NCBI GenBank assembly: GCA_049968235.1
Contig: JBMFRC010000011.1
Span: 1-64,000 of the forward strand
Direction of reading: 5' to 3'
Origin: Candidatus Hydrogenedens sp.
GTDB lineage: Bacteria > Hydrogenedentota > Hydrogenedentia > Hydrogenedentales > Hydrogenedentaceae
Length of the DNA stretch: 64,000 bases
Shown: in pieces, positions 6,026 through 57,824 of the stretch
Numbering within the stretch: position 1 is the stretch's first letter
How the letters are laid out: the number at the start of each line of letters is the position of its first letter
Position numbers and translations under genes: made by a program
Notes under the pieces: model-generated
What the model was told of the DNA's origin: nothing
The model's database searches: none
The model's input: the letters and a program-made list of their open reading frames with translations, nothing else

Positions 6026-6080
6026 TTGAATATGATGACCTCTTATCCGATATTCCCTTCGGAGATTGAAGAGGGGTTTT

Positions 6081-10361: not shown

Positions 10362-13300
10362 TTATTTGCGTAAGCATGCCCTCTTGCGTATAACCGTCAT
10401 TACTCCAATAATCGAGGATATAAGAATCATTACAAGCAATCCTGTGCTTGTAGTTGCAGGAATGCCTTTTTCTACTTCCAGTGTAGCAATCGTAGATGTA
10501 ATCGTGTCGTTCTGTCCAGTTACAGAACTACCGCTATCCTGGACCACAACATAATATTGCCCTGAATCTTCATGTTGAGCTGGGTCAATTACCAGTAGAG
10601 GACCTATTGCACCGGGAATAACTTCCCATGCTTTTCCACCGACATTTCGATACCAGGTATAGGTCTTATCACCTAATCCACCGTTCACCTGAACAAACAT
10701 TTCCACCCGTTCACCCGAAGTGGCTCTATATTCAGGCAATAGGTCTTGAATGAAAGATAAATGCAATCCTACTTCTATATTTGCTTTACGAGATTGATAT
10801 AACATTGGAATATCATCTGTTACTTCAAGATAATATTTGTATGTTCCAACTGTCAACGAAGCAGTGTTAACCAATATCTCAAGGGTATTGCCAGCCACCA
10901 CTTCTGTTCCACCTCCGGGTAGGTCGCGTTTCCATTCATAATAGACAGGTGGTAACCCACCTACGAAGTCAGCTGTCAACCAGAATGATGGGTCATTAAT
11001 ATACAATGATTCATCTTCTGGTTGTAATGTAAATATGACTTCACTACTGGCTACACGGAGTAGTACGGGGTCAGATGTAAGTGTGGTATTCAAACCTGTA
11101 ACTGTAGAGGGTTGGTCAGAGATATATACCAGGTATTGATTTCCGTCATAGGTTACATCTACATTGGATAGGAGCAAAGTATTATTATTTACGCCTAACG
11201 AACCCATCCCGATTTGCCACCAATCATAATTATATGGTTCAAATCCACCTACTACTTCTACCTGGAATATTGCATCCTGCCCAGCATACAGATTTAAACT
11301 CTGCGGTTGCGTTACTATTTGTGGTGGGTCAGCCACCTTCACATTAGCAGTCCTCGATGTTACAGGCGGGTTCAATCCACCACTGGAATCGCTTACTATT
11401 ACATAGTAATCGCCCTCATCGGTAGCATCAGCAGAGCCTAAATCAAGCACATTATGCCCTTCTTCAGGACCCAATATACTTTCAGTGCCTTTGAACCATT
11501 CATAGTAGAATGGTGGTTGGCCACCCGTTACATTAGTAATTAATTGCACTGGTGATTCACCTGTATATGCGCGCACATCAGCAGGTCCCTGAACATTGAT
11601 AAAGTTTGTTATTGACAATTTAGCAATGCGAGATGTACCACTTTGCGGTGTGCCACTATCCGTTACCACACAACGATAATACGAATTTTGTAATCCAGAT
11701 AGATGCGCACCTTCCGCAATTTGTATTGTTAAAGTTGATTCATCTGCACCCGATACAATTGAACTTGCATGTAACGGATGCGGTCCATTTGTCAATGTTG
11801 TCCATGGACCACCCTGGTCGGTTGCATATTGCCATTCATAATTTATTGTTGGTATTCCACCTGTCCTTTGAACTGCAAATTGTGCTTGATTGCCCACATT
11901 CTCGATTACATCTGCAGGATGTTCTGTGTCAACTACAAGATTTTCATACACATTTAACACGCCTGCATTTGCTGGATATGCATCCGGATCCGGTCCACTA
12001 TCAACTGCTATACAACGATATGTACCTGTATCACCTACAACAGTGCCATTTATTGTAAACACGGAATTACTAGCACCGCTAACTATTGAAACTCGACCGC
12101 CTAAGTCGCCATCATTTAATGTTACATATCCACTTCCTGTATCCCTTTGCCATGTAAATGTATATGGAGTGGTTCCACCGGAAGCGGTTACAGTTACACT
12201 GTAATTTGAACCCTCATATTGGTTCACCGGACTTGGCGTCGGGTCAGTAATCACAAATGGATTTGTTATCAAAAGTGTAGCATTTTGAGAATCTTCTGTG
12301 GATGGAGCTCCACGATTTTCAGAGTCTGTTACGCGACACTTATATTGACCGGCATCAATTAGACCTAAATTCGATATTGTCAAAGTTGATGTAGAACCTA
12401 CATTGTTTATAGATACTATCGCACCGGAACCTGATGGATGTGGTCCATCCACCAATGGGGTTGTATCATTCCATAACCATTCATAAGTATATGGGGCATA
12501 ACCTCCAGAAATTGTAACACTGAATTGTGCAGAGCCTCCTGTATTCCGATGAATACTTTGCGGTTGTGCGGATATTGCCACTACAGGTTGAACATCTAAA
12601 CTTGAAGGTCCGGCGAATACGGTTTGTCCGCCATCTGAAATGTTGATTGCGGTACCATAGTAATTACCAATCATAGTCTGGTCGAGATTGGGAATATTCA
12701 CAGGATTGGAACCTGAGCCTACAGGAGTTAAACTTCCGCTTCTATCTATATACCACTGATATAAGTAATTGGAACCTGAACCACCGATAAATTTGAAACT
12801 ATAGATAACATTCTCACCAATATATTTTCTTACTGGTGTTGTCAGGTCTACCACAGTTCGCATTACATTGGTATTGATTGTGATAGTTTTTGTTCCTGAA
12901 ATTACCTGATTGGGTGGAGGAGGCGTATCGTTCGGGTCAGTAACAACACAACGATATTGACCATCTTCCTGACCGGGGATAGCATACTCTACGGTCAATT
13001 GATTAGTTGTCGCACCACTTATAACTGTTATTATAGGAGTATTATTGGGACCATCTGAGCCATTCACATTTCTTGGATAACTACCATTAGAAATATTTAC
13101 CCAGGAACCACCTTTAAATATCTGCCATTGATATTGATACGGCGGACCATATCCACCACTGGCGTTAACGGTCATCCGGAATGAACGCCCAAAACCGATG
13201 TATCCATCTGTTAAATTGTTTGCAGTTGGACTGCTAAAATCATCTTCACTAAATGGTGAATCTCTCGGTGGGTCAAACTCTTGTATTGCTATATTACTCA

Positions 13301-15095
13301 CGGCAAGTGGGTTAGGCCAGACATCAATATAATTTGTCTTTGTTTCTGTATCTTCTCCATATTGAGTAACAACTCTTAACCGAACAGTATAAACACCTAC
13401 AGAATTGTATGTCCATTGGGGATTTGTAGGTGTTGTGTAATGAGCATCATCATTACCATCACCATTGAAATCCCAATACCAGTCGGTTATCTGAGTAGTA
13501 TTTTCCGGTAACTGGTCTGGAATAGATGAATCTGTAAATGTAACAGTCAAAGGATATTGTCCCTGGGTAGGTGCTGCTGAAAAATCTGCTGTTGGTGGAG
13601 TATGCACTACAATATAATTTGTTTTTGTCTCATTGTCATTTCCTTCGGCTGTTTGAACAGTCAGAGATACTGTATATCTACCTGCAGTATTATACTGATG
13701 ACTCGGATTCTGCTGATTACTTGTTCCACTATCACCGAAGTTCCATGCCCATGTTGTTTCTGCCCACAAGCCAAAAGTATCCGATGAATCAGTAAACTGA
13801 ACGGATTGTCCTGCTAATATCTCCACAGGTGTCGCAGAGAAATCTGCTACAGGTGTCGCTACATTTTCATACGCTCCCATATCTACAGCAGAGCCATTTT
13901 TCCTCTGGAAATTACGAATATCAACTCGCCCGGGTGCTAGAGGTGGTTGAACAAGACCATCAGCCCCTGTATCTAAACATGGGGATATTGGTGATGGGAA
14001 AGTAACTGTCAAACGAAAATCATTATTCCCTGGATTCCGGAATAATGGGTCCGAATTAATATTTCCAGTTCCTACATGTCCTCCCTGTACATCAGAATAC
14101 TGTACATCTGCATTTACATATCCAAGGCCGGGTCTAAAGGTTCTAATATGAGGATTTGACGGTACAGGATTATTCCACAATATAGTGTTATAAATTTTTG
14201 GGAAATTAACTCCACATCCACTATTCATTATAGTATTAGCATTATATAATTGAGGATTAGACAAATTAGCCGAAGTGTTATTATAAAAGGTACAATTAGT
14301 AATATATGTCTCATTTCCTATTTCTACATTTGAGGAATTGATTCCATTGTTAAAAATTCCAGCACCGCCACGAATCGGGGAAACGCCGGTATCTACTGTT
14401 TCATTGCACGTATTGCCACGGAAGACGCAATCATGGATTAATGCACTTGCCTTGTAAATATTAGAACCAACAGTCCCGGACATGTTTGCAATCGCACCAC
14501 CTGCTGTTGCAGAAACATTATCGTAGAAAACACAATTACCTATCACTGGTGCTGATAACCAGTTATATATGCCTGCGCCACGCCAGGTATGGTAATCTCC
14601 TGCAACGCCCGAAGCACGACCACCACGTATGTGGAAGCCATCAATTACTACATCCGTATTGGGACCACTTCCCTTTCCTATGACGATTACATGATATGCA
14701 TTCGTGCCACCTCTTGAAGTTCTTCCATCAATAGTCGTTACATATTGTGAAGGTCTTCTCTGGTCTCGAGAAGTCTCTGTTCCCTTAAATCCACCATAAA
14801 GATGGACATTATCTTCCATAACCAATGAGCCATCCACCAAAGCAGGTGCACCCCAAGTTGCTGTTCTTAGTTCATCGTAATTCCCCTGAGCCACCCAAAC
14901 CTCCACAGGATTTCCAGGAGATGCTTGTGCATTAGCAGTGTCAATTCCTTCCTGAATTGTGCGAAATGCTTTAGCCCATGAACTACCATCCGGGGATGGG
15001 TCTGTGCTTGCTTTATTCACATATACTACTGCAAAAGCGTAGTTTGTCAGCAAGCATAAAACCAATAAAGACCACTTTAACTTGCTTTTCATCAT
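10362..15095 (-). CDS. Giant (~1577 aa) secreted adhesin-like protein. It has an N-terminal right-handed beta-helix region, two PKD domains, then more than 8 Ig-like domains with the G-x-Y-(R/K)-C-x-V-(T/S)-D motif. The C-terminus looks like a sorting signal: IPATTSTG, then a TM helix, then a basic tail.
   Basis: Signal peptide MMKSKLKWSLLVLCLLTNYAFA, with an AGGAGA Shine-Dalgarno sequence before the internal ATG. Beta-helix-type repeats (GNCVFYDNVSATAGGAI, HDCVFRGNTC, NCTFYNNTSA). PKD motifs (WNFGDSG...SHQYNTAGRYTVSLTV; WYWDFNGDGNDDAHYT...YNSVGVYTVRLRV). Recurrent Ig-like motifs (GQYRCVVTD, GQYKCRVTD, GTYRCIAVD, YYRCVVTD). C-terminus is GIPATTSTGLLVMILISSIIGVMTVIRKRACLRK. Confidence 0.8.
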   Translation of the reverse strand: MMKSKLKWSLLVLCLLTNYAFAVVYVNKASTDPSPDGSSWAKAFRTIQEGIDTANAQASPGNPVEVWVAQGNYDELRTATWGAPALVDGSLVMEDNVHLYGGFKGTETSRDQRRPSQYVTTIDGRTSRGGTNAYHVIVIGKGSGPNTDVVIDGFHIRGGRASGVAGDYHTWRGAGIYNWLSAPVIGNCVFYDNVSATAGGAIANMSGTVGSNIYKASALIHDCVFRGNTCNETVDTGVSPIRGGAGIFNNGINSSNVEIGNETYITNCTFYNNTSANLSNPQLYNANTIMNSGCGVNFPKIYNTILWNNPVPSNPHIRTFRPGLGYVNADVQYSDVQGGHVGTGNINSDPLFRNPGNNDFRLTVTFPSPISPCLDTGADGLVQPPLAPGRVDIRNFQRKNGSAVDMGAYENVATPVADFSATPVEILAGQSVQFTDSSDTFGLWAETTWAWNFGDSGTSNQQNPSHQYNTAGRYTVSLTVQTAEGNDNETKTNYIVVHTPPTADFSAAPTQGQYPLTVTFTDSSIPDQLPENTTQITDWYWDFNGDGNDDAHYTTPTNPQWTYNSVGVYTVRLRVVTQYGEDTETKTNYIDVWPNPLAVSNIAIQEFDPPRDSPFSEDDFSSPTANNLTDGYIGFGRSFRMTVNASGGYGPPYQYQWQIFKGGSWVNISNGSYPRNVNGSDGPNNTPIITVISGATTNQLTVEYAIPGQEDGQYRCVVTDPNDTPPPPNQVISGTKTITINTNVMRTVVDLTTPVRKYIGENVIYSFKFIGGSGSNYLYQWYIDRSGSLTPVGSGSNPVNIPNLDQTMIGNYYGTAINISDGGQTVFAGPSSLDVQPVVAISAQPQSIHRNTGGSAQFSVTISGGYAPYTYEWLWNDTTPLVDGPHPSGSGAIVSINNVGSTSTLTISNLGLIDAGQYKCRVTDSENRGAPSTEDSQNATLLITNPFVITDPTPSPVNQYEGSNYSVTVTASGGTTPYTFTWQRDTGSGYVTLNDGDLGGRVSIVSGASNSVFTINGTVVGDTGTYRCIAVDSGPDPDAYPANAGVLNVYENLVVDTEHPADVIENVGNQAQFAVQRTGGIPTINYEWQYATDQGGPWTTLTNGPHPLHASSIVSGADESTLTIQIAEGAHLSGLQNSYYRCVVTDSGTPQSGTSRIAKLSITNFINVQGPADVRAYTGESPVQLITNVTGGQPPFYYEWFKGTESILGPEEGHNVLDLGSADATDEGDYYVIVSDSSGGLNPPVTSRTANVKVADPPQIVTQPQSLNLYAGQDAIFQVEVVGGFEPYNYDWWQIGMGSLGVNNNTLLLSNVDVTYDGNQYLVYISDQPSTVTGLNTTLTSDPVLLRVASSEVIFTLQPEDESLYINDPSFWLTADFVGGLPPVYYEWKRDLPGGGTEVVAGNTLEILVNTASLTVGTYKYYLEVTDDIPMLYQSRKANIEVGLHLSFIQDLLPEYRATSGERVEMFVQVNGGLGDKTYTWYRNVGGKAWEVIPGAIGPLLVIDPAQHEDSGQYYVVVQDSGSSVTGQNDTITSTIATLEVEKGIPATTSTGLLVMILISSIIGVMTVIRKRACLRK

Positions 15096-15249
15096 ATACT
15101 GTCTCCTCATAGTGTTTTTATTATAGATTAAAACGCATTTATTAGTTATTTCACTTTTCTTTACATTTTAATGATAATTTTTTATCTTGTCTAAATTATA
15201 ACATGTAAAGCAATAAAAATCAAGAATATTTAATACTATATTTATATAA

Positions 15250-15285
15250 ATATAGTGGGCTGAAAATTATTCAACCCACTATATT
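15250..15285 (-). terminator. Putative intrinsic terminator hairpin downstream of the LRR/InlB-repeat giant gene.
   Basis: Inverted repeat AATATAGTGGG(C)TG ... CA(A)CCCACTATATT of about 12 bp, followed on the minus strand by an AU-rich tract. Confidence 0.4.
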
Positions 15286-15305: not shown

Positions 15306-18300
15306 TTATGGTTGAGTACCGGGACAATAACCATCTTCACTACCTTCACACGGGTAATAACCACCGGAATTGAAGAATTGTATTAGACGGAGCAATTCAC
15401 TCAAAGATATTACCCAATCTTGTGGATTATAGTCAGAAGCATGTGGGTTACAGGAATGGTCGCCGGGTCCGGGAGCATATCCATCTTCACCCTGTGGGTC
15501 GCAGTGATATTCATTAAAGTTGAAGAACTGAATAACACGCAATAGTTCCGTTAAATTAATCTTTCCATCTCCATTCTGGTCAGCATTGTGAGGAGGTATT
15601 TCTCCTTCTGGAGTCCCTTCTGGAGTCCCTTCTGGAGTCCCTTCTGGAGTTCCTTCTGGTGTCCCTTCTCCTTCAGGTGGAATTTGAATAAAGATAACAC
15701 CGATTGTTCTGTTCCTGTCCATAGGAACCGTGATTTCAGGTTGCTCAATATTCGCAATTCCTTCTGTATCACCTGTCCATGCACCGAACATCCAGCCGTT
15801 AGCAGGCTGAGCAATAACAGTCTGAGTTTGACCCTCCAGAAATAGATATTCGTTACCTGGAAGTGGAGATGTAGTTCCCTGTCCTTCAACGACATTCAGC
15901 AGTAATTTATAATATACCTGCGGAGCAAATTTCGCTACTAATTGCATGTCTTCACTCAAAACTGTACCAAAAATAGGATTTGATGTAATTAGTGTGTTAC
16001 CGGAATACCACCCTTTGAATACCTGACCTTCACCGGGAACTGCTGTTAATTGAAGCGGGAAATTATTTGATAGTAGATATACATCTGCTAATAAAATTTC
16101 TTCTTCGCCTATAAATACAGTTCCATCGCCTTCTATCTGGAAATCAAATTTCCTACCTTCATTGTCAAAATGCGCTATCATATCATAATGTCCGTTAACA
16201 GTAACTGTTGCGGAATACCAATAAACCCAAGTTGTCTCGGGATTATTATTAGGGTTCTTTATCAATTCCCATCCACCGAAATAATCTTCGGTTTCCGCAT
16301 ATAAACTTAATTGTTTGCCATTAATATAGCAATACGCTCCTGGTCTTGGGGATGTTTCTCCGGTTCCGTTTCCGGCAGTAGTAATGTTCACATTCCAATC
16401 ACAAGGTTCAAATACCGCTATAATCGATAGGCTTTCCTGAACTTGAAGTATTAACACATCATCTGTGCTTATAATTTCATTATCATCAGTTATCCAGTGT
16501 TTTAACGCCCATCCTGAATCAGGATATGCTATATAGTATATCCATTCTCCACCTATATATCCGTAGATACCAGGGACGGGATTTGTTGTTCCATTACCCT
16601 GTGTACTTAACTCTATTGTATATACAGCATCTACGAAACGGGCTACAAGATTACGGTCAGAAGTTACCTGGAAAGAATAAAATGGCCATTCATTTACTAA
16701 TTCGTTGTTTTCATACCAACCCGCAAATGCTTTTCCTGAATCAGGAATGGCTGTAAAGAATGCCCATTGTCCATCAAAGTAGTAATAATTTCCCGGTACT
16801 GGGTTAGTGGTTCCTGGTCCGTCCACAGATATTACTACGGTATAGTCCGTCTCTCTGAAATTTGCAGTTATTACTTTATTTGCATTCATCACAACCTGTA
16901 TAGGATTATCTTGTGGATTTGCTCCTCCTATATCACCACTCCAACCATTAAATACCCAACCCTCCTCAGGATTTGCTGTAATAAGAACAACCTGACCTTC
17001 TGTCTTCTGATATATACCTGGGACGGGGTCAGTCGTTCCTGAACCATTTACATTTATAGTTAAAGTATAGGTTGGTACAGATGTAAAAACGGCACGAATC
17101 GTCATATCTTCTGTTATTTCTACATTTATAGGATTATCTGTTCCTAAATTATTACTATTACCATCTTCCCAATGGTCAAACAGATAACCTGCATCTGGAA
17201 ATGCTGAAATGCTAACGAACGAACCCTGAGCATATTGATATGTCCCTTGATATGGAGATGTAAACCCGTTCCCTATTACTTCTATTTTTAATTGATAGCA
17301 TTGATTGGAGAATATAGCACCAACTGTCTTGTCACTATCCATTACTATATTAGCAAAAGGAGAAGAGCCGAAAGACTGGGCATCTTCTGTCCATCCTCCA
17401 AAGCATGAACCTGTATCCGGTAATGCATATAAATATACCCATTGATTATCTTTAAATGAATAATTACCATTTCCATCATAGAATGGGATAATGGTACCTG
17501 TACCTGTGTTGGATGGGTCAAATGCAAATGTTAATGTATATGTGCCAGGGACAAAAACAGCCTTCACTAAAATATTTTCCTGAACATTATCAAAGAGATA
17601 ACTATAACTATCTGTTAAAAATACATATCCTGCTTTTGCGTTCTCATCCCAAATTTCCCAGTGGTCAAAAGCATAGCCACTATCTGCTTGAGGATATGCT
17701 AAAATAATAAAATCACTATTGATTTCGACTGTATTTACTCCTACTTGAGGTAAAACCTTTCCAATACCTTCCACTTCAATGGTTACGGTTACCTCACATA
17801 CTCCTTCACGAGTTACTACACCACTAGGTTTCACTTTTTGAACCAGTTGGTCGACTAAATAACAAAGTTCCGTAGGAACGGGATTGTACCTAAGGTCAAT
17901 ATAGTCACCATCACCAATTCCTTCGTTGTCTAACAGAAACCCAAAATTCTCTATGTTATTATTGTCCAGATAAACATATTTTAATGCGGTATAGTTTTTT
18001 AAAGGACTTATATCAGAAACCACGTTATTACTTAGATTTAACATTTCTAGAGTTCCTACAGGAGATCCTGAATTGCTTAACCCATATATATTGTTAATTT
18101 GATTCATTGACGCATCTAATGCTACAAGATTAGGCATCATTTCTATACCGGAAAGATTGGTTAATGAATTATCACTTACATTCAACCCTATCAAAGAATT
18201 AAAGGTAAATGGATCTTTTACTGTGAACAATGAAGGACCAATATTATTCCCAGGCAAATTTGCAATCGTTAAACCGTTTAATCCTACAAGACTGTTGATA

Positions 18301-19268
18301 TTTGTAATACCTGTATAGGCACAAAACAACAAATATAAATTACTCCAATTTTGAACAACACCTATATCATTAATGCCAAGCCCTACTAAGAATGCAAAAC
18401 GGGGATTTAACCCGCTAAGATTTGAAAGATCTGTTATATTTTCTTCAGCTAAACCTAATAATCCTGGGTTATCCTCATCTACATAAGTTATATTTGTCAT
18501 GTTGGCTACATAAGTATCCAATTCTGTTTGTCCCAACCCACAATTAGCGGATAAAAATGAATTCAAGTTCTGGTCTACATTTCCCAGAGGGGACCAATCC
18601 GTAATTGGATTACTTCCTAACCATAACTGAGTTAGATTATTCAGATTGTTTAGAAAACTTATATTTGTAACATTCTCCAATCCCCCTATACTTAGTATTT
18701 CTAAATTTACTAAAGAATTTAATACAGCAAGGTCAGCGTCATCAAGATTATTCGCTCCCGTAACAAATGGGTCAAATTCATCATATAAAAATACCGTACC
18801 AAATCCTAAATTTAATCCTACTAAATTTGTTAATGTCGATAAGGCTGAGATATCCGAAATCTGGTTCATTCCTATATCTAAATACTGTAGTCCTGTAAGT
18901 CCTGACAAACTTGAAATATCTGTTATCTGATTCTTTCCTAATAACAAATATATTAAATTCGTTAAACTACTTAATGGTGATACATTTGTTATTTCATTCG
19001 AAACAAGATTTAATACGGTTAAAGAAGTACACGCCTCTAAACCTGTTAAATCGGTAATCCCAAGGTAGGAGGCATCCAATTTAGTAAAATCAGGGTTTGC
19101 TAATTCGGTATCTTGTGGAGGGTTACTCAAAGGGCTTCCGACCTGGTCTTCATATTGTATCTGAACTGCTGACAACAGATTCGGGTCATTAAATATTACA
19201 TCTGCCGAAAAAACATTCAGAGAAAACAGTGCAAAAGCCATCACAACGACTAAAGATTGGATTTTCAT
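15306..19268 (-). CDS. Giant (1320 aa) secreted protein. It has N-terminal internalin-like leucine-rich repeats, about 9 divergent InlB B-repeat-like domains, a PEGTPEG linker and a conserved Cys-containing dockerin/EF-hand-like C-terminal module.
   Basis: Signal peptide MKIQSLVVVMAFALFSLNVFSA, with AAGGAGATG as Shine-Dalgarno. LRRs read LTVLNLVSNEITNVSPLSSLTNLIYLLLGKNQITDISSLSGLTGLQYLDIGMNQISDISAL. Repeated modules follow the pattern Y(T/K)L.I.V.G.GTT.P.PG.Y....G..V.L.A.P..G..F.GWSGD. C-terminal region is PEGEGTPEGTPEGTPEGTPEGTPEGEIPPHNADQNGDGKINLTELLRVIQFFN...YHCD...EDGYAPG...CNPHASDYNPQDWVISLSELLRLIQFFNSGGYYPCEGSEDGYCPG. Confidence 0.85.
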   Translation of the reverse strand: MKIQSLVVVMAFALFSLNVFSADVIFNDPNLLSAVQIQYEDQVGSPLSNPPQDTELANPDFTKLDASYLGITDLTGLEACTSLTVLNLVSNEITNVSPLSSLTNLIYLLLGKNQITDISSLSGLTGLQYLDIGMNQISDISALSTLTNLVGLNLGFGTVFLYDEFDPFVTGANNLDDADLAVLNSLVNLEILSIGGLENVTNISFLNNLNNLTQLWLGSNPITDWSPLGNVDQNLNSFLSANCGLGQTELDTYVANMTNITYVDEDNPGLLGLAEENITDLSNLSGLNPRFAFLVGLGINDIGVVQNWSNLYLLFCAYTGITNINSLVGLNGLTIANLPGNNIGPSLFTVKDPFTFNSLIGLNVSDNSLTNLSGIEMMPNLVALDASMNQINNIYGLSNSGSPVGTLEMLNLSNNVVSDISPLKNYTALKYVYLDNNNIENFGFLLDNEGIGDGDYIDLRYNPVPTELCYLVDQLVQKVKPSGVVTREGVCEVTVTIEVEGIGKVLPQVGVNTVEINSDFIILAYPQADSGYAFDHWEIWDENAKAGYVFLTDSYSYLFDNVQENILVKAVFVPGTYTLTFAFDPSNTGTGTIIPFYDGNGNYSFKDNQWVYLYALPDTGSCFGGWTEDAQSFGSSPFANIVMDSDKTVGAIFSNQCYQLKIEVIGNGFTSPYQGTYQYAQGSFVSISAFPDAGYLFDHWEDGNSNNLGTDNPINVEITEDMTIRAVFTSVPTYTLTINVNGSGTTDPVPGIYQKTEGQVVLITANPEEGWVFNGWSGDIGGANPQDNPIQVVMNANKVITANFRETDYTVVISVDGPGTTNPVPGNYYYFDGQWAFFTAIPDSGKAFAGWYENNELVNEWPFYSFQVTSDRNLVARFVDAVYTIELSTQGNGTTNPVPGIYGYIGGEWIYYIAYPDSGWALKHWITDDNEIISTDDVLILQVQESLSIIAVFEPCDWNVNITTAGNGTGETSPRPGAYCYINGKQLSLYAETEDYFGGWELIKNPNNNPETTWVYWYSATVTVNGHYDMIAHFDNEGRKFDFQIEGDGTVFIGEEEILLADVYLLSNNFPLQLTAVPGEGQVFKGWYSGNTLITSNPIFGTVLSEDMQLVAKFAPQVYYKLLLNVVEGQGTTSPLPGNEYLFLEGQTQTVIAQPANGWMFGAWTGDTEGIANIEQPEITVPMDRNRTIGVIFIQIPPEGEGTPEGTPEGTPEGTPEGTPEGEIPPHNADQNGDGKINLTELLRVIQFFNFNEYHCDPQGEDGYAPGPGDHSCNPHASDYNPQDWVISLSELLRLIQFFNSGGYYPCEGSEDGYCPGTQP
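15603..15672. repeat. In-frame 12-nt tandem repeat (CCTTCTGGAGTC, about 5.5 copies) encoding the PEGTPEG linker.
   Basis: tccttctggagtcccttctggagtcccttctggagtcccttctggagttccttctggtgtcccttctcc read directly. It is coding, not CRISPR-like, because there are no unique spacers. Confidence 0.7.
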
Positions 19269-20785: not shown

Positions 20786-21838
20786 TTAACCTGTTTTCTC
20801 TACTTTCTGAACCAATTCCGTTCTGACGGGATATGTTCGATTTCCATAACTTATATAATAATAGGGTGCTTGTTCCACAACATCATCGGCAGGTTGCCGT
20901 AGTCCACTTTTAAAATATACCATATACTTCTTTCCGGAATTTATACCTGCCGTTGAAATATTTCGCTTTACCGCGGTAATTTTTCCACTCATTCTACTTG
21001 CATAGTAATTAGCATCTAATTTTAGACCCAATTTTGATTTAACTAATTTCACATAGTTAATCGTCTCATCAAATGGAGGAATACCTTTATACTTTTTCAC
21101 ATTCTCTGGACCTGCATTATACCCTGCCAGAGCAAAATCAATGTTCCCATTGAATAAGTCTAACATTCTATTTAAGTACTGCACACCTCCTGCAATATTT
21201 TGGGCAGGGTCAAATATATCGGTAACGCCCATTTCAACTGCAGTTGCAGGCATTAATTGCATTAAACCACAGGCACCTGCATTAGAAACAGCATTAGGAT
21301 TGAAAGCACTTTCGACTTCCATCACCGCCCATATCAATTTTTCATCTACCTGGTAATACTGACTGCACTCTTTTACAATTTTCTGAATTGCTTCAAAGTT
21401 ATATACTTTTCCTTTATATAAATGTTCAAATTTCTTTGAAACATGAACCGGTTCCAAAGGTACTATGATTGCATAGCCATTATTCTCAGTAGAATCTTTT
21501 GTAATTGTTCCTTTTTTCGTTATTTGCTGGGTGTTGGGAGATTTTTTAAAATACACCTCTTTATATTCACTTTTAGAACGATATTTTTGGGGACGATTTG
21601 TAAAAACTAATGTGCCATCCTTCCGTTGAAATTGATACAATCCTTTTTCTCGTGAGCGGTCTGCATAGGCTTCTTTTAAATCTATCTTATATATTTTCGT
21701 TCCCTGAGAAGAAACACCATCTATCTTTTGCTCTGAAGAAACATGGGGTTCCGTGAAAATAGGATTAGAAAAAAGCAACACAAAAAACAAACTGGTTATA
21801 GTTCTGAGAAATATCTTTTTCTTCTTTACGAATAACAT
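20786..21838 (-). CDS. Lytic murein transglycosylase (SLT domain) with a signal peptide and an extra C-terminal domain.
   Basis: SLT motifs read EKLIWAVMEVESAFNPNAVSNAGACGLMQLMPATA ... AGYNAGPENV. The N-terminal hydrophobic signal is LFFVLLFSNPIF. Confidence 0.8.
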   Translation of the reverse strand: MLFVKKKKIFLRTITSLFFVLLFSNPIFTEPHVSSEQKIDGVSSQGTKIYKIDLKEAYADRSREKGLYQFQRKDGTLVFTNRPQKYRSKSEYKEVYFKKSPNTQQITKKGTITKDSTENNGYAIIVPLEPVHVSKKFEHLYKGKVYNFEAIQKIVKECSQYYQVDEKLIWAVMEVESAFNPNAVSNAGACGLMQLMPATAVEMGVTDIFDPAQNIAGGVQYLNRMLDLFNGNIDFALAGYNAGPENVKKYKGIPPFDETINYVKLVKSKLGLKLDANYYASRMSGKITAVKRNISTAGINSGKKYMVYFKSGLRQPADDVVEQAPYYYISYGNRTYPVRTELVQKVEKTG

Positions 21839-54455: not shown

Positions 54456-57400
54456 TTACTTAAGCCCACCACAATAACCATCCTCTTCTTCAGGACATAT
54501 TCTGTAACCACCCATGTTAAAGAACTGTATTAACCGCAATAATTCATTAAGGCCAATACGCCAATCTTGTGGAGCATAATCGCTGGTATGCGGTGGACAA
54601 TTGTGGAATGAATCATTTCTTCCAGGGGCATATCCATCTTCTGTCGAACCTTCACAATGATACCCAAAGGAGTTAAATAGTTGAATAACGCGAAGTAGTT
54701 CTCCTATTTCAAATTTCCAATTAAAGTTTCTATCCGCAGAATGTATTCCATGTGGGATTTCTCCTTCTGGCGTGCCTTCCGCAACACCTTCGGGTATGCC
54801 CTCTGGTGTCCCTTCTACAATACCTTCTGGCTGTCCCTCGGGTATGCCTTCTGGCGTGCCTTCCACAACACCTTCGGGTATGCCCTCTGGGGTTCCTTCA
54901 ACGATACCTTCCGGTGTCCCTTCTACAACACCTTCTGGCTGTCCCTCGAGGACACCTTCGGCTGTACCTTCTAAGACACCTTCCGGTGTCCCTTCCGCAA
55001 CGCCTTCGGGTTGTCCTTCCGGTATCCCTTCTGCAACACCTTCCGGTTGTCCTTCGGGTGTGCCTTCAACGACGCCTTCTGGGGTACCTTCTACGATACC
55101 CTCCGGTTGTCCTTCGGGTATGCCTTCGGGAGAGCCTTCTACTGTTCCTTCACCTTCAGGAGAAGGTAAGAAATCGGAGCAGTCAAGAACGCCATTATCA
55201 TTCTTATCTGCAACATCAAACTGGTCTTGTGTAATTTTTGAACTCAAAGCACGCACTTCCGTTAGAGTTAATTCATTATCACCATTCGAATCGAGTTTGG
55301 GTAGCAAATTAAATATGGAACTTACTGCTGTAAATTCTTCAAAAGTTAATTGATTATCCCTGTTCTTATCTACCAGATACCATACGCCAGCAATAATTAT
55401 ATCACTCCAACCTGTCAGGGATTTAAATTCGCTTTTTGATAACAAACCATCGCCATTGGTATCTCCAAATAGGAGCATAATCAGGAAATAATGTTCAATA
55501 TCATCAATATCACAGGTAGGAGGTTCCCCTTCTATAACACCTTCCGGGATGCCTTCAGGAGTACCCTCAACTATACCTTCACCTTCAGGTATACCTTCAG
55601 GAATACCCTCTTGTGTCCCCTCTGGTGTACCTTCCGGGGTGCCTTCCGGGGTGCCTTCAGGTGTTCCCTCTGGTGTGCCTTCCGGGGTACCTTCAACTAC
55701 ACCTTCGCCTTCAGGCAATACAAAGTCATTGCAATCAAGAACACCGTTTTGATTTAAATCCACTGCATTTAACTGGTCCATAGTTATATTGGAATTCAGG
55801 TTTTGCAATTCTATAAGCGTAAGGGCACCATCGTTATTTCCATCTAATCCTGGCAACAGGTTATACAACCACTCCACCTTAGAGAACTCTTCAAGAGATA
55901 ACTGATTATCTCCATTCGTATCAACGGCACTCCATAATAATAGGACAGTATCACTCCAACCTGTAATGGCTTTAAGTTCTTCTTTAGATAATAATCCATT
56001 CCCATCTGTGTCGCCGAACATAATCAAGATATAGTAGTAATGTGTAATATCATCAATATCACAGGGTGGTTCACCTTCAAAAGTCCCCGGACAAGGTGGA
56101 CAACCACCACCGTTCAGGGTCTGATTAATATCCAGTGCAGAAAGAATAAAGGTATCTATATCCGTAGGTGCAAATACATAGGCTTTATACTCACCTATAT
56201 TACAGACTTCATCAAAATCCGGGTCACCGGCGGAAGCAAGGTATTGTCCTGCGGTTAAATCATATCCGTTTAATGTGAATGTGCCCCAGAACATTAATGT
56301 ATCAATCACATTCACAATAGAATTGATAAACGATTGTTCACCTGTAGTAAGGACCCCAGCAACAACATTGATAAATGTTGTGTTCGAGAAAATCGTGCTT
56401 AATAATGGAATAGAATCCCATTTGCTTTGAGCCACAACACGATTATTCATATATGCGTTTTTCACACAGCAGAAAATAGGCAATTCCGGATGTGCAAGAA
56501 TATAATCTAACAATCTTGCCTGTGCAACATCATACATACCATTACCATCTATATCCGCTGTATCGGGATTTACGCTAAGGAAAGAAGCAATGCCATATAA
56601 ACTGCGTAATGCTGTTTCAAACCCCGCATTTACTGCAGTTTGATTGCAGTTATCCCAGCACCATTCAGCATAACAAGATTCTGGAAGTGGACCCATAATA
56701 TCGATGCAGTCGAGATAGCCATTGCCATCAATATCATGTTGATTAAATTGGTCTTGTGTAATTTTGGAACTCAATTGCCTTATTTCAGTTAAAGTTACCT
56801 GATTGTCGCCATTCGAATCGAGGTTTGCAGGTAAAAGTCCACCCAAACGATTGCTGGCTACAAATTCGTCAAAGGACATAAAACCATCACCGTTTTTATC
56901 AATTATCCACCATCCTAAATCTAAAAGGAACCCTGTTACAAAGGCTTTTAATTCATTTTTTGTTAACTTACCATCACCATTTGTATCACCAAACATTATT
57001 AACAATGCGAAATAGTTTTCATCAGAACGCATATTACAGGGAGGTGGACCTCCACCTTCGCCTTCACCTTCAACGGTTCCTTCTGCCCCACATGCGGGAC
57101 AACCACCATAATAATCTGTAATACTACTATTAATAGCCGCATTCACAAATGCATCAAAGTCCGCAGGTGTGTTCACAACCCATGCTTTGTATTCACCAAT
57201 ATTGCAGACACCGTCCAAATCCGCATCACCTTTGGCATTCAGATAAACAATATTTGAGCCATCCAATTCTAATAAGGAAAGGTCGGGTAAGTTAGGAATT
57301 ATCCAATTCAACGCTGATAGAATAGTATTAATAATTGCTGTGTTCCCCATTGTTGCCAGTGCTGCGAAGAAGGTTTTCATACCTTCAAGGTCTGGTGGCG

Positions 57401-57824
57401 TTCCTAAATAGGATGGCCAGCCTGTCTGTATGGCAAGTGCTAACGCTTCCACTTTCAAACGATTGCCTGCATACGCCCAATATATACAATTACGAGTGGG
57501 TATCCCACCAATTAATGAAAAACTTCCCATAATTGTATCGAATAAACGTGCCTGGGCAGTATCTTTCATTCCATCAAAATCTAAATCAAGATTATCTGGA
57601 TTTCCTCCAATTAATGGGATTTTCGCATATAATTCCCGCATTGAATTTTCAAAACTTTCAGTATATACAGGACCGGGTATTAAATTATTGCAATTAGGAA
57701 TATTGCAATAATCCACTTCTGCATCTGTTTGTGCAACTGATGAAGAAGAAAAAACAAAACATACACTCATGATAAGGAACAAAGTTCCTATGTATATTTT
57801 GCTTGTATTAATCTTAATGTTCAT
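54456..57824 (-). CDS. Giant (1122 aa) secreted protein with two copies of an unknown ~200-aa domain and three blocks of four canonical EF-hand/dockerin-like Ca-binding loops. It also has long PEG(T/I/V)PEG linkers and the same conserved Cys-containing C-terminal module as the 15306..19268 protein.
   Basis: Signal peptide MNIKINTSKIYIGTLFLIMSVCFVFSSSSVAQ, with an AAGGAG Shine-Dalgarno sequence. EF-hand loops include DTNGDGKLTKNE, DKNGDGFMSFDE, DSNGDNQVTLTE and DIDGNGYLDCID, repeated in three blocks. Linkers read EGTPEGTPEGTPEG... The C-terminus reads ELLRVIQLFNSFGYHCEGSTEDGYAPG...CPPHTSDYAPQDWRIGLNELLRLIQFFNMGGYRICPEEEDGYCGG. Confidence 0.85.
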   Translation of the reverse strand: MNIKINTSKIYIGTLFLIMSVCFVFSSSSVAQTDAEVDYCNIPNCNNLIPGPVYTESFENSMRELYAKIPLIGGNPDNLDLDFDGMKDTAQARLFDTIMGSFSLIGGIPTRNCIYWAYAGNRLKVEALALAIQTGWPSYLGTPPDLEGMKTFFAALATMGNTAIINTILSALNWIIPNLPDLSLLELDGSNIVYLNAKGDADLDGVCNIGEYKAWVVNTPADFDAFVNAAINSSITDYYGGCPACGAEGTVEGEGEGGGPPPCNMRSDENYFALLIMFGDTNGDGKLTKNELKAFVTGFLLDLGWWIIDKNGDGFMSFDEFVASNRLGGLLPANLDSNGDNQVTLTEIRQLSSKITQDQFNQHDIDGNGYLDCIDIMGPLPESCYAEWCWDNCNQTAVNAGFETALRSLYGIASFLSVNPDTADIDGNGMYDVAQARLLDYILAHPELPIFCCVKNAYMNNRVVAQSKWDSIPLLSTIFSNTTFINVVAGVLTTGEQSFINSIVNVIDTLMFWGTFTLNGYDLTAGQYLASAGDPDFDEVCNIGEYKAYVFAPTDIDTFILSALDINQTLNGGGCPPCPGTFEGEPPCDIDDITHYYYILIMFGDTDGNGLLSKEELKAITGWSDTVLLLWSAVDTNGDNQLSLEEFSKVEWLYNLLPGLDGNNDGALTLIELQNLNSNITMDQLNAVDLNQNGVLDCNDFVLPEGEGVVEGTPEGTPEGTPEGTPEGTPEGTPEGTQEGIPEGIPEGEGIVEGTPEGIPEGVIEGEPPTCDIDDIEHYFLIMLLFGDTNGDGLLSKSEFKSLTGWSDIIIAGVWYLVDKNRDNQLTFEEFTAVSSIFNLLPKLDSNGDNELTLTEVRALSSKITQDQFDVADKNDNGVLDCSDFLPSPEGEGTVEGSPEGIPEGQPEGIVEGTPEGVVEGTPEGQPEGVAEGIPEGQPEGVAEGTPEGVLEGTAEGVLEGQPEGVVEGTPEGIVEGTPEGIPEGVVEGTPEGIPEGQPEGIVEGTPEGIPEGVAEGTPEGEIPHGIHSADRNFNWKFEIGELLRVIQLFNSFGYHCEGSTEDGYAPGRNDSFHNCPPHTSDYAPQDWRIGLNELLRLIQFFNMGGYRICPEEEDGYCGGLK
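54761..55165. repeat. Long imperfect in-frame tandem repeat of about 12-15 nt encoding the (V/I)(V/A)EGTPEG(I/Q)PEG linker. A second block lies at about 55535-55730.
   Basis: Repeated ccttctgg/ccttcggg units are visible directly. The alternative-frame ORFs listed in this region are low-complexity artefacts. Confidence 0.7.

What the first reader, a model, noticed from the sequence alone, without database searches (positions are those of the whole stretch)
15306..19268. Eukaryote-like domain repertoire on secreted giants: internalin-type LRRs plus InlB B-repeats, and an Ig-like (G-x-Y-R/K-C-x-V-T-D) array with PKD domains and a beta-helix
Two neighbouring genes of 1320 and about 1577 aa encode signal-peptide proteins packed with adhesion or host-interaction modules: LRR, divergent InlB B-repeat, PKD, and I-set-like Ig domains with the conserved Y-x-C core. 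Such combinations are typical of invasins and adhesins in pathogens and symbionts. In an environmental PVC-like genome they suggest cell-cell, host or particle attachment functions.
Basis: partly seen in the sequence, partly recalled or inferred. Interest (0 to 1): 0.55.

Follow-up and report, generated by a model that had tools for sequence, protein, structure and literature searches.

The report
Hydrogenedens surface proteins with dockerin-like tail

Summary
The domain calls are confirmed. Gene A (15306-19268, minus strand, 1320 aa) has a signal peptide, internalin-type 22-residue LRRs and nine Flg_new_2 repeats. Gene B (10362-15095, 1577 aa) has a signal peptide, a beta-helix, two PKD domains and nine Ig_3/I-set-like domains.

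- The genome is Candidatus Hydrogenedens (Hydrogenedentota), not PVC.
- Both genes are conserved, syntenic chromosomal genes.
- Nothing points to a eukaryotic host.

- Gene A ends in a (PEGT)5 linker and a ~95-aa domain. This domain has two "loop-ELLRxIQFFN-GYxC-EDGYxPG" halves and four conserved Cys.
- The same tail closes a third protein in the window (54456-57824).
- It has about 3000 protein clusters, mostly from Hydrogenedentota, with at least 36 copies in one MAG.
- It sits at the C-terminus of signal-peptide proteins carrying very diverse passenger domains.
- It is far better conserved than its passenger (93% versus 73-74% identity).

The best reading is a lineage-wide surface anchoring or sorting module. 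Gene B ends in a transmembrane, sorting-signal-like tail.

As stated, the finding is ordinary. The tail domain is a modestly novel variant of non-cellulosomal dockerins.

The parts
15306..19268 (-). Gene A, 1320 aa: signal peptide, LRR head, nine Flg_new_2 repeats, PEGT linker, C-terminal dockerin-like domain (CTD)
   Evidence: ORF, translation, Pfam and NCBIfam. An AAGGAG Shine-Dalgarno sequence lies 8 nt upstream of the ATG. Orthologues are 47-74% identical over the full length.
19203..19268 (-). Gene A signal peptide (aa 1-22, MKIQSLVVVMAFALFSLNVFSA)
   Evidence: Read from the sequence. The N-terminus is conserved in orthologues. Inferred; no predictor was run.
17793..19202 (-). Gene A LRR domain with caps (aa 23-492). 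About 15-17 internalin-type 22-residue repeats, some irregular.
   Evidence: LRR_4 4.3e-30 and LRR_8 2.9e-9. LRR units at aa 62-444. Best PDB relative is internalin A, E 7e-52.
15690..17792 (-). Nine tandem Flg_new_2 (divergent InlB B-repeat) domains, aa 493-1193
15594..15689 (-). Acidic Pro/Glu/Gly/Thr linker (aa 1194-1225, (PEGT)5). It is encoded by a 12-bp DNA tandem repeat at 15604-15669.
   Evidence: Translation. Tandem Repeats Finder: period 12, 5.5 copies, 94% matches. An (E-G-x)n linker precedes the CTD in 48 of 59 complete family members.
15309..15593 (-). C-terminal dockerin-like domain (CTD), aa 1226-1320. It has two halves, each a Ca-loop-like segment + helix ELLR(V/L)IQFFN + GY.C + EDGY.PG, and four conserved Cys.
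15255..15279 (-). Hairpin (GTGGGTTGAA-TAATT-TTCAGCCCAC) followed by a T-rich tail, just after the gene A stop codon. Looks like an intrinsic terminator.
   Evidence: Read from the sequence. The consensus scan did not list it. Inferred.
10362..15095 (-). Gene B, 1577 aa from ATG 15095 (the mechanical ORF runs to 15110): signal peptide, beta-helix, 2 PKD, 9 Ig-like domains, C-terminal TM tail
   Evidence: ORF, translation, Pfam and NCBIfam. A GAGGAG Shine-Dalgarno sequence lies before the ATG at 15095. Orthologues are 75-87% identical and align from that Met. Promoter-like site at 15223-15195.
13860..15029 (-). Gene B right-handed beta-helix head (aa 28-417 of the 1582-aa ORF). It has GGAI / FxxN-type turns and ends in a choice-of-anchor Q motif (DPLF..DFRL..SP..D.G).
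   Evidence: NCBIfam choice_anch_Q at aa 371-415, 26 bits against cutoff 25. Weak DUF5123 match. Motifs read. The beta-helix fold is inferred and was not modelled.
13320..13859 (-). Two PKD domains (aa 418-502 and 504-597)
   Evidence: PKD_4 1.4e-22 and PKD 1.8e-13. Repeat boundaries. PDB relatives are the ColH PKD domain (1.8e-14) and an archaeal S-layer protein.
10476..13199 (-). Nine Ig_3/I-set-like domains (aa 638-1545), with a GG..PY.Y.W motif. Four of the nine have Y.C.
   Evidence: Ig_3 5.9e-41, I-set 1.4e-24 and a sub-threshold SprB match. Nine repeats. PDB relatives are DIP-eta, DCC, DSCAM, NCAM and titin, E 1.5e-7 to 3e-4.
10365..10475 (-). Gene B C-terminal tripartite tail: GIPATTSTG, an 18-residue hydrophobic helix, then RKRACLRK
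   Evidence: Translation. Conserved in two orthologues as GIPAST.TG + TM + RK(R/K). No NCBIfam sorting-signal model matches; LPXTG gives E 1.2 and 9.9 bits against a cutoff of 15.9.
54456..57824 (-). Third protein of the same tail class in the window: 1122 aa, signal-like N-terminus, EF-hand modules, long (PEGx)n linkers. The same CTD lies at about 54459-54746.
   Evidence: Translation, motif scan, Pfam EF-hand families. The CTDs are 60% identical to each other.

Best explanation
Genes A and B are two separately transcribed, vertically inherited chromosomal genes of a Candidatus Hydrogenedens bacterium. They encode Sec-exported, rod-like proteins displayed on the cell envelope, each built as a binding head, a stalk and a C-terminal attachment module.

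Gene A:
- The head is a curved internalin-type LRR solenoid, which binds the ligand (inferred).
- Nine Flg_new_2 beta-modules form a stalk that holds the head away from the cell (inferred).
- A flexible acidic (PEGT)n linker connects the stalk to a ~95-aa C-terminal domain.
- That domain is a duplicated Ca-loop/helix module related to EF-hands and dockerins. Four conserved cysteines probably form two disulfides.
- I propose that this tail is a non-covalent docking module. It would attach gene A, and dozens of other exported proteins per genome, to a common and still unknown envelope receptor.

Gene B:
- It follows the same plan with different parts: a beta-helix head, two PKD and nine Ig-like stalk domains.
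- It ends in a hydrophobic helix plus a basic tail. This is either a membrane anchor or an unclassified tripartite sorting signal.

The likely role is attachment to particles, polymers or other cells. The ligands are unknown.

Shown: the domain composition, the taxon, the synteny, the tail's distribution, position, passenger diversity and conservation, and a confident fold model. Inferred: export, surface location, Ca binding, disulfides, docking and the binding function.
For: Domain architecture.

Taxon:
- The neighbours ClpB, PGI, sulfatase, beta-helix protein and pyrophosphatase are identical to NCBI MAG proteins named Candidatus Hydrogenedens sp. on a 99-kb contig.
- Gene order from the histidine kinase to the DUF1559 protein is identical in GCA_964588155.1. 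A second syntenic locus is L025.

Separate transcription units:
- Each gene has its own Shine-Dalgarno sequence.
- A hairpin follows gene A.
- A promoter-like site lies before gene B.

The tail as a shared module:
- There are 196 close homologues, nearly all unnamed and mostly labelled Hydrogenedentes/Hydrogenedentota.
At least 36 tail-bearing ORFs from one MAG lie within the 80 loci held.
- There are 2977 clusters at E<=1e-3 and 1346 at E<=1e-30.
- The tail ends 17-29 residues after its second helix motif in nearly all ORFs.
- 131 of the 144 top representatives carry a copy within 12 aa of the C-terminus.
- 54 of 59 complete members have a hydrophobic, signal-like N-terminus, and 48 of 59 have an (E-G-x)n linker.
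- Passenger domains are diverse: Flg_new_2, PASTA, LRR, CHRD, Ig_3, FG-GAP, GLUG, beta-helix, peptidases M14 and C1, and EF-hand.

Docking-module character:
- The AF2 model has pLDDT 94.3, with two helices and two hairpins.
- The first loop, D-Q-N-G-D-G-K-I-N-L-T-E, is a canonical 12-residue EF-hand loop. It matches EF-hand and Dockerin_1 models just below threshold.
- Some proteins carry two to four copies, or tandem copies. This fits a binding module better than a cleaved signal.
- Between congeneric genomes the tail is 93% identical, against 74% for the LRR and 73% for the Flg region. This suggests a conserved partner for the tail and a faster-evolving ligand-binding part.

Precedent: non-cellulosomal dockerins on large adhesin-like proteins, and more than 100 dockerin domains per genome in ANME archaea (PMC10066038, PMC5244752, both citing Peer et al. 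2009).
Against: - No partner, cohesin or otherwise, was identified or could be searched for.
- The second loop has 13 residues (DYNPQDW.I.LSE) and may not bind Ca.
- The strictly C-terminal position behind a flexible linker, on very diverse passengers, is also the signature of a secretion or sorting signal.
- The organism is presumably diderm: the window encodes an alginate-export-type outer-membrane barrel and a SurA-like chaperone. How proteins of 1300-1600 aa would cross an outer membrane is unknown.
- If gene B's tail is a plain inner-membrane anchor, the protein would sit in the periplasm and not on the surface.
- No ligand is known for either head.
- There are no expression or proteomic data.
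Confidence: 0.6

Rival explanations
1. The C-terminal domain is a secretion or sorting signal, analogous in logic to the T9SS C-terminal domain or to exosortase signals. A dedicated outer-membrane translocon or processing enzyme would recognise it and then remove it or use it for covalent attachment. On this reading it is not a reversible docking module.
For: - It is at the extreme C-terminus in about 91% of representatives and in nearly all ORFs of Hydrogenedentota loci.
- It follows a flexible low-complexity linker.
- It is attached to very diverse passengers, including enzymes.
- There are dozens of copies per genome.
- It is more conserved than the passenger.
Against: - 21 of the 144 top representatives carry several copies. 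Some copies are internal or in tandem, and some proteins consist only of tandem copies plus a TM segment. This is unusual for a cleaved signal.
- The fold is alpha-helical and dockerin-like, not the beta-sandwich of T9SS C-terminal domains.
- There is no TM or basic tail of the exosortase, sortase or rhombosortase type.
- No Por_Secre_tail or sorting-signal model matches.
Confidence: 0.25
2. One reading: these are eukaryote-like invasin or internalin-type effectors used to attach to or enter a eukaryotic host.
For: - The LRR region is most similar to Listeria internalin A among solved structures.
- The Ig-like domains are most similar to animal cell-adhesion molecules.
- The Flg_new_2 family is named after the InlB B-repeat.
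Against: - Internalin membership fails: 98 bits against a cutoff of 1600, with no LRR_adjacent domain and no LPXTG or GW anchor.
- The same domain types are routine passengers of the tail-class proteome in this phylum and occur in many other environmental bacteria.
- The genes are syntenic and vertically inherited.
- The two Hydrogenedentota papers examined deal with metabolic potential and stress responses and mention no adhesins, secretion or surface proteins.
- The neighbouring genes encode a sulfatase, a GH127 enzyme and sugar dehydrogenases, which suggests polymer degradation.
- Four of the Ig-like domains have one Cys each and five have none, so the canonical Ig disulfide is absent.
Confidence: 0.08
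3. The tail is a true dockerin of a cellulosome-like system. Tail-bearing proteins would assemble on a cohesin scaffold into an extracellular polymer-degrading complex, and genes A and B would be non-catalytic substrate-targeting subunits.
For: - The fold and loop are dockerin-like.
- Some tail-bearing proteins are enzymes: peptidases M14 and C1, TrAA12-like and PhoPQ-related.
- A sulfatase and a GH127 enzyme are encoded nearby.
- Environmental LRR proteins with canonical Dockerin_1 and cohesin domains exist.
Against: - Most passengers are non-catalytic adhesion-type domains, and no glycoside hydrolase was among the 45 proteins scanned.
- The Pfam dockerin threshold is not met.
- The extra Cys-containing hairpins are foreign to dockerins.
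- Gene B has no such tail.
- No cohesin was seen in the window.
Confidence: 0.07

Closest known systems
Type I dockerin modules, including the non-cellulosomal dockerin-like modules surveyed by Peer et al. 2009 (cited in PMC10066038 and PMC5244752)
   Same: - A small C-terminal module behind a flexible linker.
- An internal duplication of a Ca-loop plus helix.
- Many copies per genome on diverse passengers.
- Dockerins are the best structural neighbours.
- The first loop matches Dockerin_1 and EF-hand models weakly.
   Different: - It is about 95 aa long, against about 60-70 aa for dockerins.
- Each half carries an added GY.C...EDGY.PG beta-hairpin. Four to six conserved Cys point to probable disulfides.
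- The second loop has 13 residues.
- It scores below the Pfam cutoff (17.5-19.8 bits against 22.9).
- No cohesin partner is known.
- It is largely restricted to Hydrogenedentota.
Listeria internalins (InlA, InlB)
   Same: - A signal peptide.
- An N-terminal 22-residue LRR solenoid, with internalin A the best PDB match at 7e-52.
- B-repeat-type beta modules behind the LRR.
- A C-terminal surface-attachment module.
   Different: - No Ig-like inter-repeat (LRR_adjacent) domain.
- Nine divergent B-repeats instead of none or one.
- No LPXTG or GW anchor.
- NCBIfam internalin models score about 6% of their cutoffs.
- The organism is environmental and presumably diderm.
Bacterial 'immunoglobulin domain-containing' / SprB-repeat giant surface proteins and Pmp-like beta-helix adhesins carrying choice-of-anchor domains
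   Same: - Gene B has GG..PY.Y.W Ig_3/I-set-like repeats, PKD domains and a beta-helix head ending in a choice-of-anchor Q motif.
- It ends in a C-terminal hydrophobic and basic tail, like sorting signals.
   Different: - The tail matches none of the catalogued signals (PEP-CTERM, IPTL-CTERM, LPXTG, T9SS).
- The Ig array has only weak relatives in the word-indexed search.
T9SS C-terminal domains (Por_Secre_tail) as a functional analogy
   Same: A conserved C-terminal domain shared by dozens of signal-peptide proteins with unrelated passengers in one phylum.
   Different: - The fold is different: helical and EF-hand-like, not a beta-sandwich.
- There is no Pfam match.
- Multi-copy and tandem arrangements exist.

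Membership tests
Pfam LRR_4 / LRR_8 (leucine-rich repeats) | HMM score above the gathering cutoff | tested here: met
   LRR_4 scores 103.5 bits against a cutoff of 27. LRR_8 scores 37 against 27.
Class 1 internalins (InlA / InlH; NCBIfam NF033189, NF033188) | Full-length model score above the cutoff | tested here: not met
   internalin_A scores 98 bits against a cutoff of 1600. internalin_H scores 92 against 1050. Only the LRR part matches.
Class 1 internalins | 22-residue LRR units of the L..L..L.L..N.I.DI..L type | tested here: met
   Units spaced 22 residues apart at aa 102, 124, 356 and 378. Internalin A is the best PDB match, 7e-52.
Class 1 internalins | An Ig-like inter-repeat (LRR_adjacent) domain after the LRRs, and an LPXTG or GW surface anchor | tested here: not met
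   No LRR_adjacent, Gram_pos_anchor or GW family appears among the Pfam hits at E<=0.01. The C-terminus is the dockerin-like domain instead.
Pfam Flg_new_2 (divergent InlB B-repeat) | HMM score above the gathering cutoff; tandem ~70-aa repeats | tested here: met
   189 bits against a cutoff of 23.6, with 6 stretches. The self-HMM finds 9 repeats.
InlB B-repeat fold | Structural similarity to the solved B-repeat (2y5p, 7pv9) | tested here: inconclusive
Pfam PKD / PKD_4 | HMM score above the gathering cutoff | tested here: met
   PKD_4 scores 80 bits against 27. PKD scores 50.7 against 23.5. Two copies.
Pfam Ig_3 / I-set | HMM score above the gathering cutoff | tested here: met
   Ig_3 scores 139.3 bits against 30. 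I-set scores 86.3 against 23.7. PDB relatives are animal Ig-superfamily adhesion molecules.
Immunoglobulin superfamily (canonical) | An intradomain disulfide between the B-strand and F-strand cysteines | tested here: not met
   Four repeats have only the F-strand Y.C cysteine and five have no Cys (sequences). This feature is also absent in some genuine I-set domains.
NCBIfam choice-of-anchor Q (NF041518) | Domain model score above the cutoff | tested here: met
   26 bits against a cutoff of 25, at aa 371-415 of gene B. The margin is small.
Dockerin type I (Pfam PF00404) | HMM score above the gathering cutoff | tested here: not met
   17.5 bits for the whole protein and 19.8 bits for the isolated domain, against a cutoff of 22.9. 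Only 4 of 38 family members match at E<=0.05.
Dockerin type I | Duplicated segment of a 12-residue Ca-binding loop plus helix (F-hand) | tested here: inconclusive
   The duplication is clear. The first loop, DQNGDGKINLTE, is canonical. The second, DYNPQDWVISLSE, has 13 residues. Ca binding was not tested.
Dockerin type I | Dockerin fold | tested here: inconclusive
Dockerin type I | A cognate cohesin partner in the same organism | not testable with these tools
   Whole Hydrogenedentota genomes could not be scanned for cohesin. None was seen among the window proteins scanned.
EF-hand (Pfam EF-hand_1/5/6) | HMM score above the gathering cutoff | tested here: not met
   20.6-22.2 bits against cutoffs of 25-25.9 for the window copy. 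20 of 38 members match at E<=0.05. The PDB profile search gives calmodulin at E 0.005.
Catalogued C-terminal sorting signals (PEP-CTERM, IPTL-CTERM, LPXTG, T9SS Por_Secre_tail), tested on the gene B tail and the gene A tail | A match to the NCBIfam or Pfam signal model | tested here: not met
   The only hit is LPXTG_anchor at E 1.2 and 9.9 bits, against a cutoff of 15.9, for the gene B tail. The gene A tail has no hit.

The most novel reading that the evidence does not exclude
The ~95-aa tail defines an undescribed surface-display system that runs through the whole Hydrogenedentota phylum. Dozens of exported proteins per genome, including gene A and the EF-hand protein at 54456-57824, would dock through this Ca-loop, disulfide-stabilised, dockerin-like module onto a receptor unrelated to cohesins. 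One candidate receptor is the class of membrane-anchored proteins made of tandem copies of the same module, which would make the docking homotypic. That would be a new protein-sorting or anchoring principle for a candidate phylum whose cell envelope has never been studied.
Probability: 0.25. Interest if true: 0.6.

Novelty: new variant of a known kind. Interest (0 to 1): 0.4.

Why it matters
Taken as stated, the finding adds two more large multi-domain adhesin-like proteins to an uncultured bacterium. NCBI already labels the orthologues 'leucine-rich repeat domain-containing protein'. That is routine.

The added value is the tail.
- It gives a sequence handle (consensus H.ADQN.D..I.LSELLRVIQFFNS.GYHC..GTEDGYAPG...C.PH.SDYNPQDW.I.LSELLRLIQFFNSGGYH.CEGTEDGFCPG) that picks out much of the exported proteome of Hydrogenedentota.
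- It explains why many of these genes are truncated in MAGs: the repetitive linker DNA breaks assemblies.
- It points to a shared anchoring or sorting mechanism that can be tested by metaproteomics and biochemistry.
- It corrects the taxonomic assignment and warns against reading 'eukaryote-like' Pfam names as evidence of host interaction.

Tried and rejected
- Exact-sequence look-ups of genes A and B and the 54456 protein found nothing. This is probably because of different start calls or truncated models. Their neighbours were found and gave the taxon.
- A homologue search with three Ig repeats of gene B returned only 7 weak hits and missed even the 75-87% orthologues. This is a limit of the word index and is not evidence of uniqueness.
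- A PDB sequence search with the Flg_new_2 region gave no hit.
- The AFDB fold library was unavailable, so the tail fold was compared with solved structures only.
- NCBIfam at E<=10 on both C-terminal tails gave no sorting-signal model.
- No sortase, exosortase, cohesin or secretion-system gene was found in the window.
- Rfam found only two tRNAs.
- Promoter-like and terminator-like counts in the region are at chance level.
- Literature searches found no description of Hydrogenedentota surface proteins or of this domain.
- One call failed on a frame error.
- Horizontal acquisition was rejected. G+C is only slightly above that of the flanks and the synteny is conserved.
- A T1SS/RTX-type C-terminal signal was rejected because N-terminal signal peptides are present.

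Full report
OBSERVATION

The window holds two adjacent minus-strand ORFs: 15306-19268 (1320 aa, gene A) and 10362-15110 (1582 aa mechanical ORF, gene B). The finding's coordinates cover only gene A, although its text describes both.

Gene A has a strong Shine-Dalgarno sequence (AAGGAG) before its ATG. For gene B, the first five codons of the mechanical ORF are themselves a Shine-Dalgarno sequence (GAGGAG) for the ATG at 15095. Orthologues align from that Met.

A hairpin with a T-rich tail follows the gene A stop codon (15279-15255). A promoter-like site with an extended -10 element precedes gene B (15223-15195). The two genes are probably transcribed separately. Promoter-like matches in this A+T-rich region are no more frequent than chance.

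DOMAIN CHECK

Gene A:
- Flg_new_2 E 1.2e-56, LRR_4 4.3e-30, LRR_8 2.9e-9.
- Domain-level similarity to internalins A and H in NCBIfam.
- An HMM trained on the protein itself resolves nine Flg_new_2 repeats between aa 493 and 1193.
- LRR units run from aa 62 to 444, several at the internalin spacing of 22 residues.
- Among solved structures the LRR region is closest to Listeria internalin A (E 7e-52).
- One Flg_new_2 repeat was modelled using the nine repeats as its alignment. The model is very confident (pLDDT 97.6) and all-beta.
- Foldseek finds nothing significant for this model.

Gene B:
- Ig_3 5.9e-41, I-set 1.4e-24, PKD_4 1.4e-22, PKD 1.8e-13, and choice-of-anchor Q just above its cutoff.
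- It has two PKD domains and nine Ig-like repeats.
- The nearest solved relatives of the Ig array are animal adhesion molecules: DIP-eta, DCC, DSCAM, NCAM and titin, E 1.5e-7 to 3e-4.
- The nearest relatives of the PKD pair are clostridial collagenase ColH and an archaeal S-layer protein.
- The Y-x-C motif is present in four of the nine Ig repeats. None has the partner cysteine, so the canonical Ig disulfide is absent.

WHERE IT COMES FROM

The genome is not PVC. ClpB, glucose-6-phosphate isomerase, the sulfatase, the 401-aa beta-helix protein and the pyrophosphatase of the window are identical to NCBI proteins of MAGs named Candidatus Hydrogenedens sp. They lie on a 99-kb contig.

The N_methyl + DUF1559 proteins at 7889-8815 and 32062-33045 probably prompted the PVC guess. 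They belong to this lineage too, since the first one is conserved in the syntenic Hydrogenedens MAG.

In the congeneric MAG GCA_964588155.1 the gene order is identical: histidine kinase, response regulator, hypothetical, PGI, beta-helix, SLT, aminotransferase, gene A, gene B, sulfatase, DUF1559. A more distant locus, L025, keeps aminotransferase, A and B together.

Gene A has full-length orthologues at 47-74% identity, annotated 'leucine-rich repeat domain-containing protein'. It also has a large paralogue family in the phylum that combines LRR, PASTA and Flg_new_2. Genes A and B are therefore vertically inherited lineage genes and not an acquired island.

Gene A does not end with its last Flg_new_2 repeat. 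It continues with (PEGT)5, encoded by a 12-bp DNA tandem repeat at 15604-15669. It then ends in about 95 residues:
PHNADQNGDGKINLTELLRVIQFFNFNEYHCDPQGEDGYAPGPGDHSCNPHASDYNPQDWVISLSELLRLIQFFNSGGYYPCEGSEDGYCPGTQP.

The same linker and tail close a third protein in the window, a 1122-aa EF-hand-rich protein at 54456-57824.

Properties of the tail:
- It is an internal duplication. Each half is a loop, a helix ELLRxIQFFN, then GY.C and EDGY.PG.
- Four cysteines are nearly invariant. Of 82 copies from Hydrogenedentota loci, 64 have four Cys and 11 have six.
- It matches no Pfam or NCBIfam model above threshold. Dockerin_1 (17.5-19.8 bits against 22.9) and the EF-hand families (about 21-22 bits against 25-26) touch only the first loop and helix.
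- A profile search of PDB sequences finds only calmodulin EF-hand loops, at E about 0.005.
- An AlphaFold2 model with 38 homologues is confident (pLDDT 94.3): two helices, each followed by a small hairpin.

DISTRIBUTION OF THE TAIL

- A search with the tail alone returned 196 close homologues, almost all unnamed. Many are 'partial' fragments at contig ends from Hydrogenedentes/Hydrogenedentota MAGs.
The best 80 loci come from 17 assemblies. One MAG (JAKQOG01) contributes 27 loci carrying 36 tail-bearing ORFs, often in adjacent genes.
- An exhaustive profile search of 1.84 billion cluster representatives gives 2977 clusters at E<=1e-3 and 1346 at E<=1e-30.
- In the loci, the ORFs end 17-29 residues after the second helix motif in nearly all cases.
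- 131 of the 144 best representatives have a copy within 12 residues of the C-terminus.
- Of 59 complete proteins, 54 start with a hydrophobic, signal-like segment and 48 have an (E-G-x)n linker before the tail. The median length is 1041 aa.
- Passengers are heterogeneous: Flg_new_2 (10 of 45), PASTA (8), LRR_4 (6), CHRD (6), Ig_3 (3), TrAA12-like, FG-GAP, GLUG, beta-helix, peptidases M14 and C1, proprotein-convertase P domain, and EF-hand.
- A minority of proteins carry two to four copies, and some consist of tandem copies plus a membrane segment.
- One divergent three-copy example lies on a contig next to a TFIIE-alpha gene, so it may be archaeal.

CONSERVATION

The window was compared with its congeneric MAG.
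- Within gene A, the tail is 93% identical, the LRR head 74% and the Flg_new_2 stalk 73%.
- Gene B is 87% identical.
- Neighbouring genes range from 69% to 98%.
- The tail is thus under much stronger constraint than the passenger it carries.

MECHANISM

These facts fit a head-stalk-anchor surface protein: an LRR binding head, a stalk of small beta modules, an acidic flexible spacer, and a C-terminal module common to the exported proteome.

I favour a non-covalent docking module, for five reasons.
- It has a dockerin/EF-hand-like duplicated loop-helix.
- Conserved cysteines are typical of extracytoplasmic domains.
- Tandem and internal copies exist.
- It is highly conserved, which implies a common partner.
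- There is precedent for non-cellulosomal dockerins on adhesin-like giants and for more than 100 dockerin domains per genome in ANME archaea (PMC10066038, PMC5244752, both citing Peer et al. 2009).

The main rival is that the tail is a secretion or sorting signal that is recognised and perhaps removed. Its position, its linker and the diversity of its passengers fit that equally well. No partner or machinery could be searched for with the tools available.

Gene B follows the same plan with a beta-helix head (GGAI / FxxN-type turns and a choice-of-anchor Q end motif), PKD and Ig-like stalk domains, and a different ending. The ending is GIPATTSTG, an 18-residue hydrophobic helix and RKRACLRK. 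It is conserved in orthologues but matches no catalogued sorting signal. It is either a plain membrane anchor or an unclassified tripartite signal.

The ligands of both heads are unknown. The neighbourhood encodes a sulfatase, a GH127 enzyme and sugar dehydrogenases. This is more suggestive of life on polymers and particles than on a host, but it is weak evidence.

COMPARISON AND NOVELTY

- Gene A works like an internalin in outline but is not one. It has no inter-repeat domain and no LPXTG or GW anchor, and the NCBIfam models score at about 6% of their cutoffs.
- Gene B belongs to the broad class of bacterial Ig/PKD/beta-helix surface proteins.
- The 'eukaryote-like' label reflects Pfam naming and says nothing about origin.
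- The tail is closest to dockerins but fails the Pfam threshold. It is half as long again, has Cys-containing hairpins and has no known cohesin.
- I file the tail as a new variant of a known kind. No description of it was found in Pfam, NCBIfam or the Hydrogenedentota literature searched.

VERDICT

The finding as written is ordinary. The uncatalogued, lineage-wide C-terminal domain raises the interest to moderate (0.4).

Noticed in passing
window 54456-57824 (-): A 1122-aa protein with a signal-like N-terminus, two ~200-aa repeats of unknown type, three EF-hand-pair modules and very long (PEG.)n linkers. It ends in the same dockerin-like tail as gene A (tail at about 54459-54746).
   Followed up: partly
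window 15604-15669: A 12-bp DNA tandem repeat (5.5 copies, 94% matches) encodes the PEGT linker. Equivalent (E-G-x)n linkers precede the tail in most family members. Many database homologues are 'partial' fragments starting inside the linker at contig ends, so these repeats seem to break metagenome assemblies.
   Followed up: partly
window 7889-8815 (+) and 32062-33045 (+): Two N_methyl + DUF1559 (SBP_bac_10) pseudopilin-like proteins. This family is usually taken as a Planctomycetota/PVC marker, but here it occurs in Candidatus Hydrogenedens. The first one is conserved in the syntenic MAG.
   Followed up: partly
L082 6001-7974 (protein P0163); L083 5302-6372 (protein P0156): Divergent proteins made of three copies of the tail module plus a membrane segment. 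One lies on a contig beside a TFIIE-alpha gene and may be archaeal. They could be scaffold or receptor proteins for the module, or they may show that the module is older than Hydrogenedentota.
   Followed up: partly
protein P0154 (= HPO16463.1, Candidatus Hydrogenedentota, 2552 aa): An LRR protein with four copies of the tail module, at aa 928-1022, 2039-2129, 2339-2430 and 2459-2551. It is either a genuine multi-tail protein or several fused gene calls.
   Followed up: no
window 51609-54305 (-): An 898-aa protein with a central WbsX/GH99-like domain. It is flanked by N- and C-terminal regions of about 150 aa that look like copies of one unknown module ('W.F...L.GW......V..G.L.G.T...DP').
   Followed up: no
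window 22027-23232 (-) and 20786-21838 (-): A secreted 401-aa right-handed beta-helix protein next to an SLT lytic transglycosylase, just upstream of the aminotransferase, gene A and gene B block. The arrangement is conserved in the congeneric MAG.
   Followed up: no
L012 9833-10960 (+): Another Hydrogenedentota protein ends in 'VPTVNAAG + hydrophobic helix + RRR'. This resembles the gene B tail (GIPATTSTG + helix + RKR) and hints at a second, uncatalogued tripartite C-terminal signal in the phylum.
   Followed up: no
window 6066-7649 (+), 24741-26405 (+), 48590-49624 (+): Conserved ORFs of 527, 554 and 344 aa with no Pfam or NCBIfam match. The first two have orthologues at 69-77% identity in the syntenic MAG.
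   Followed up: no
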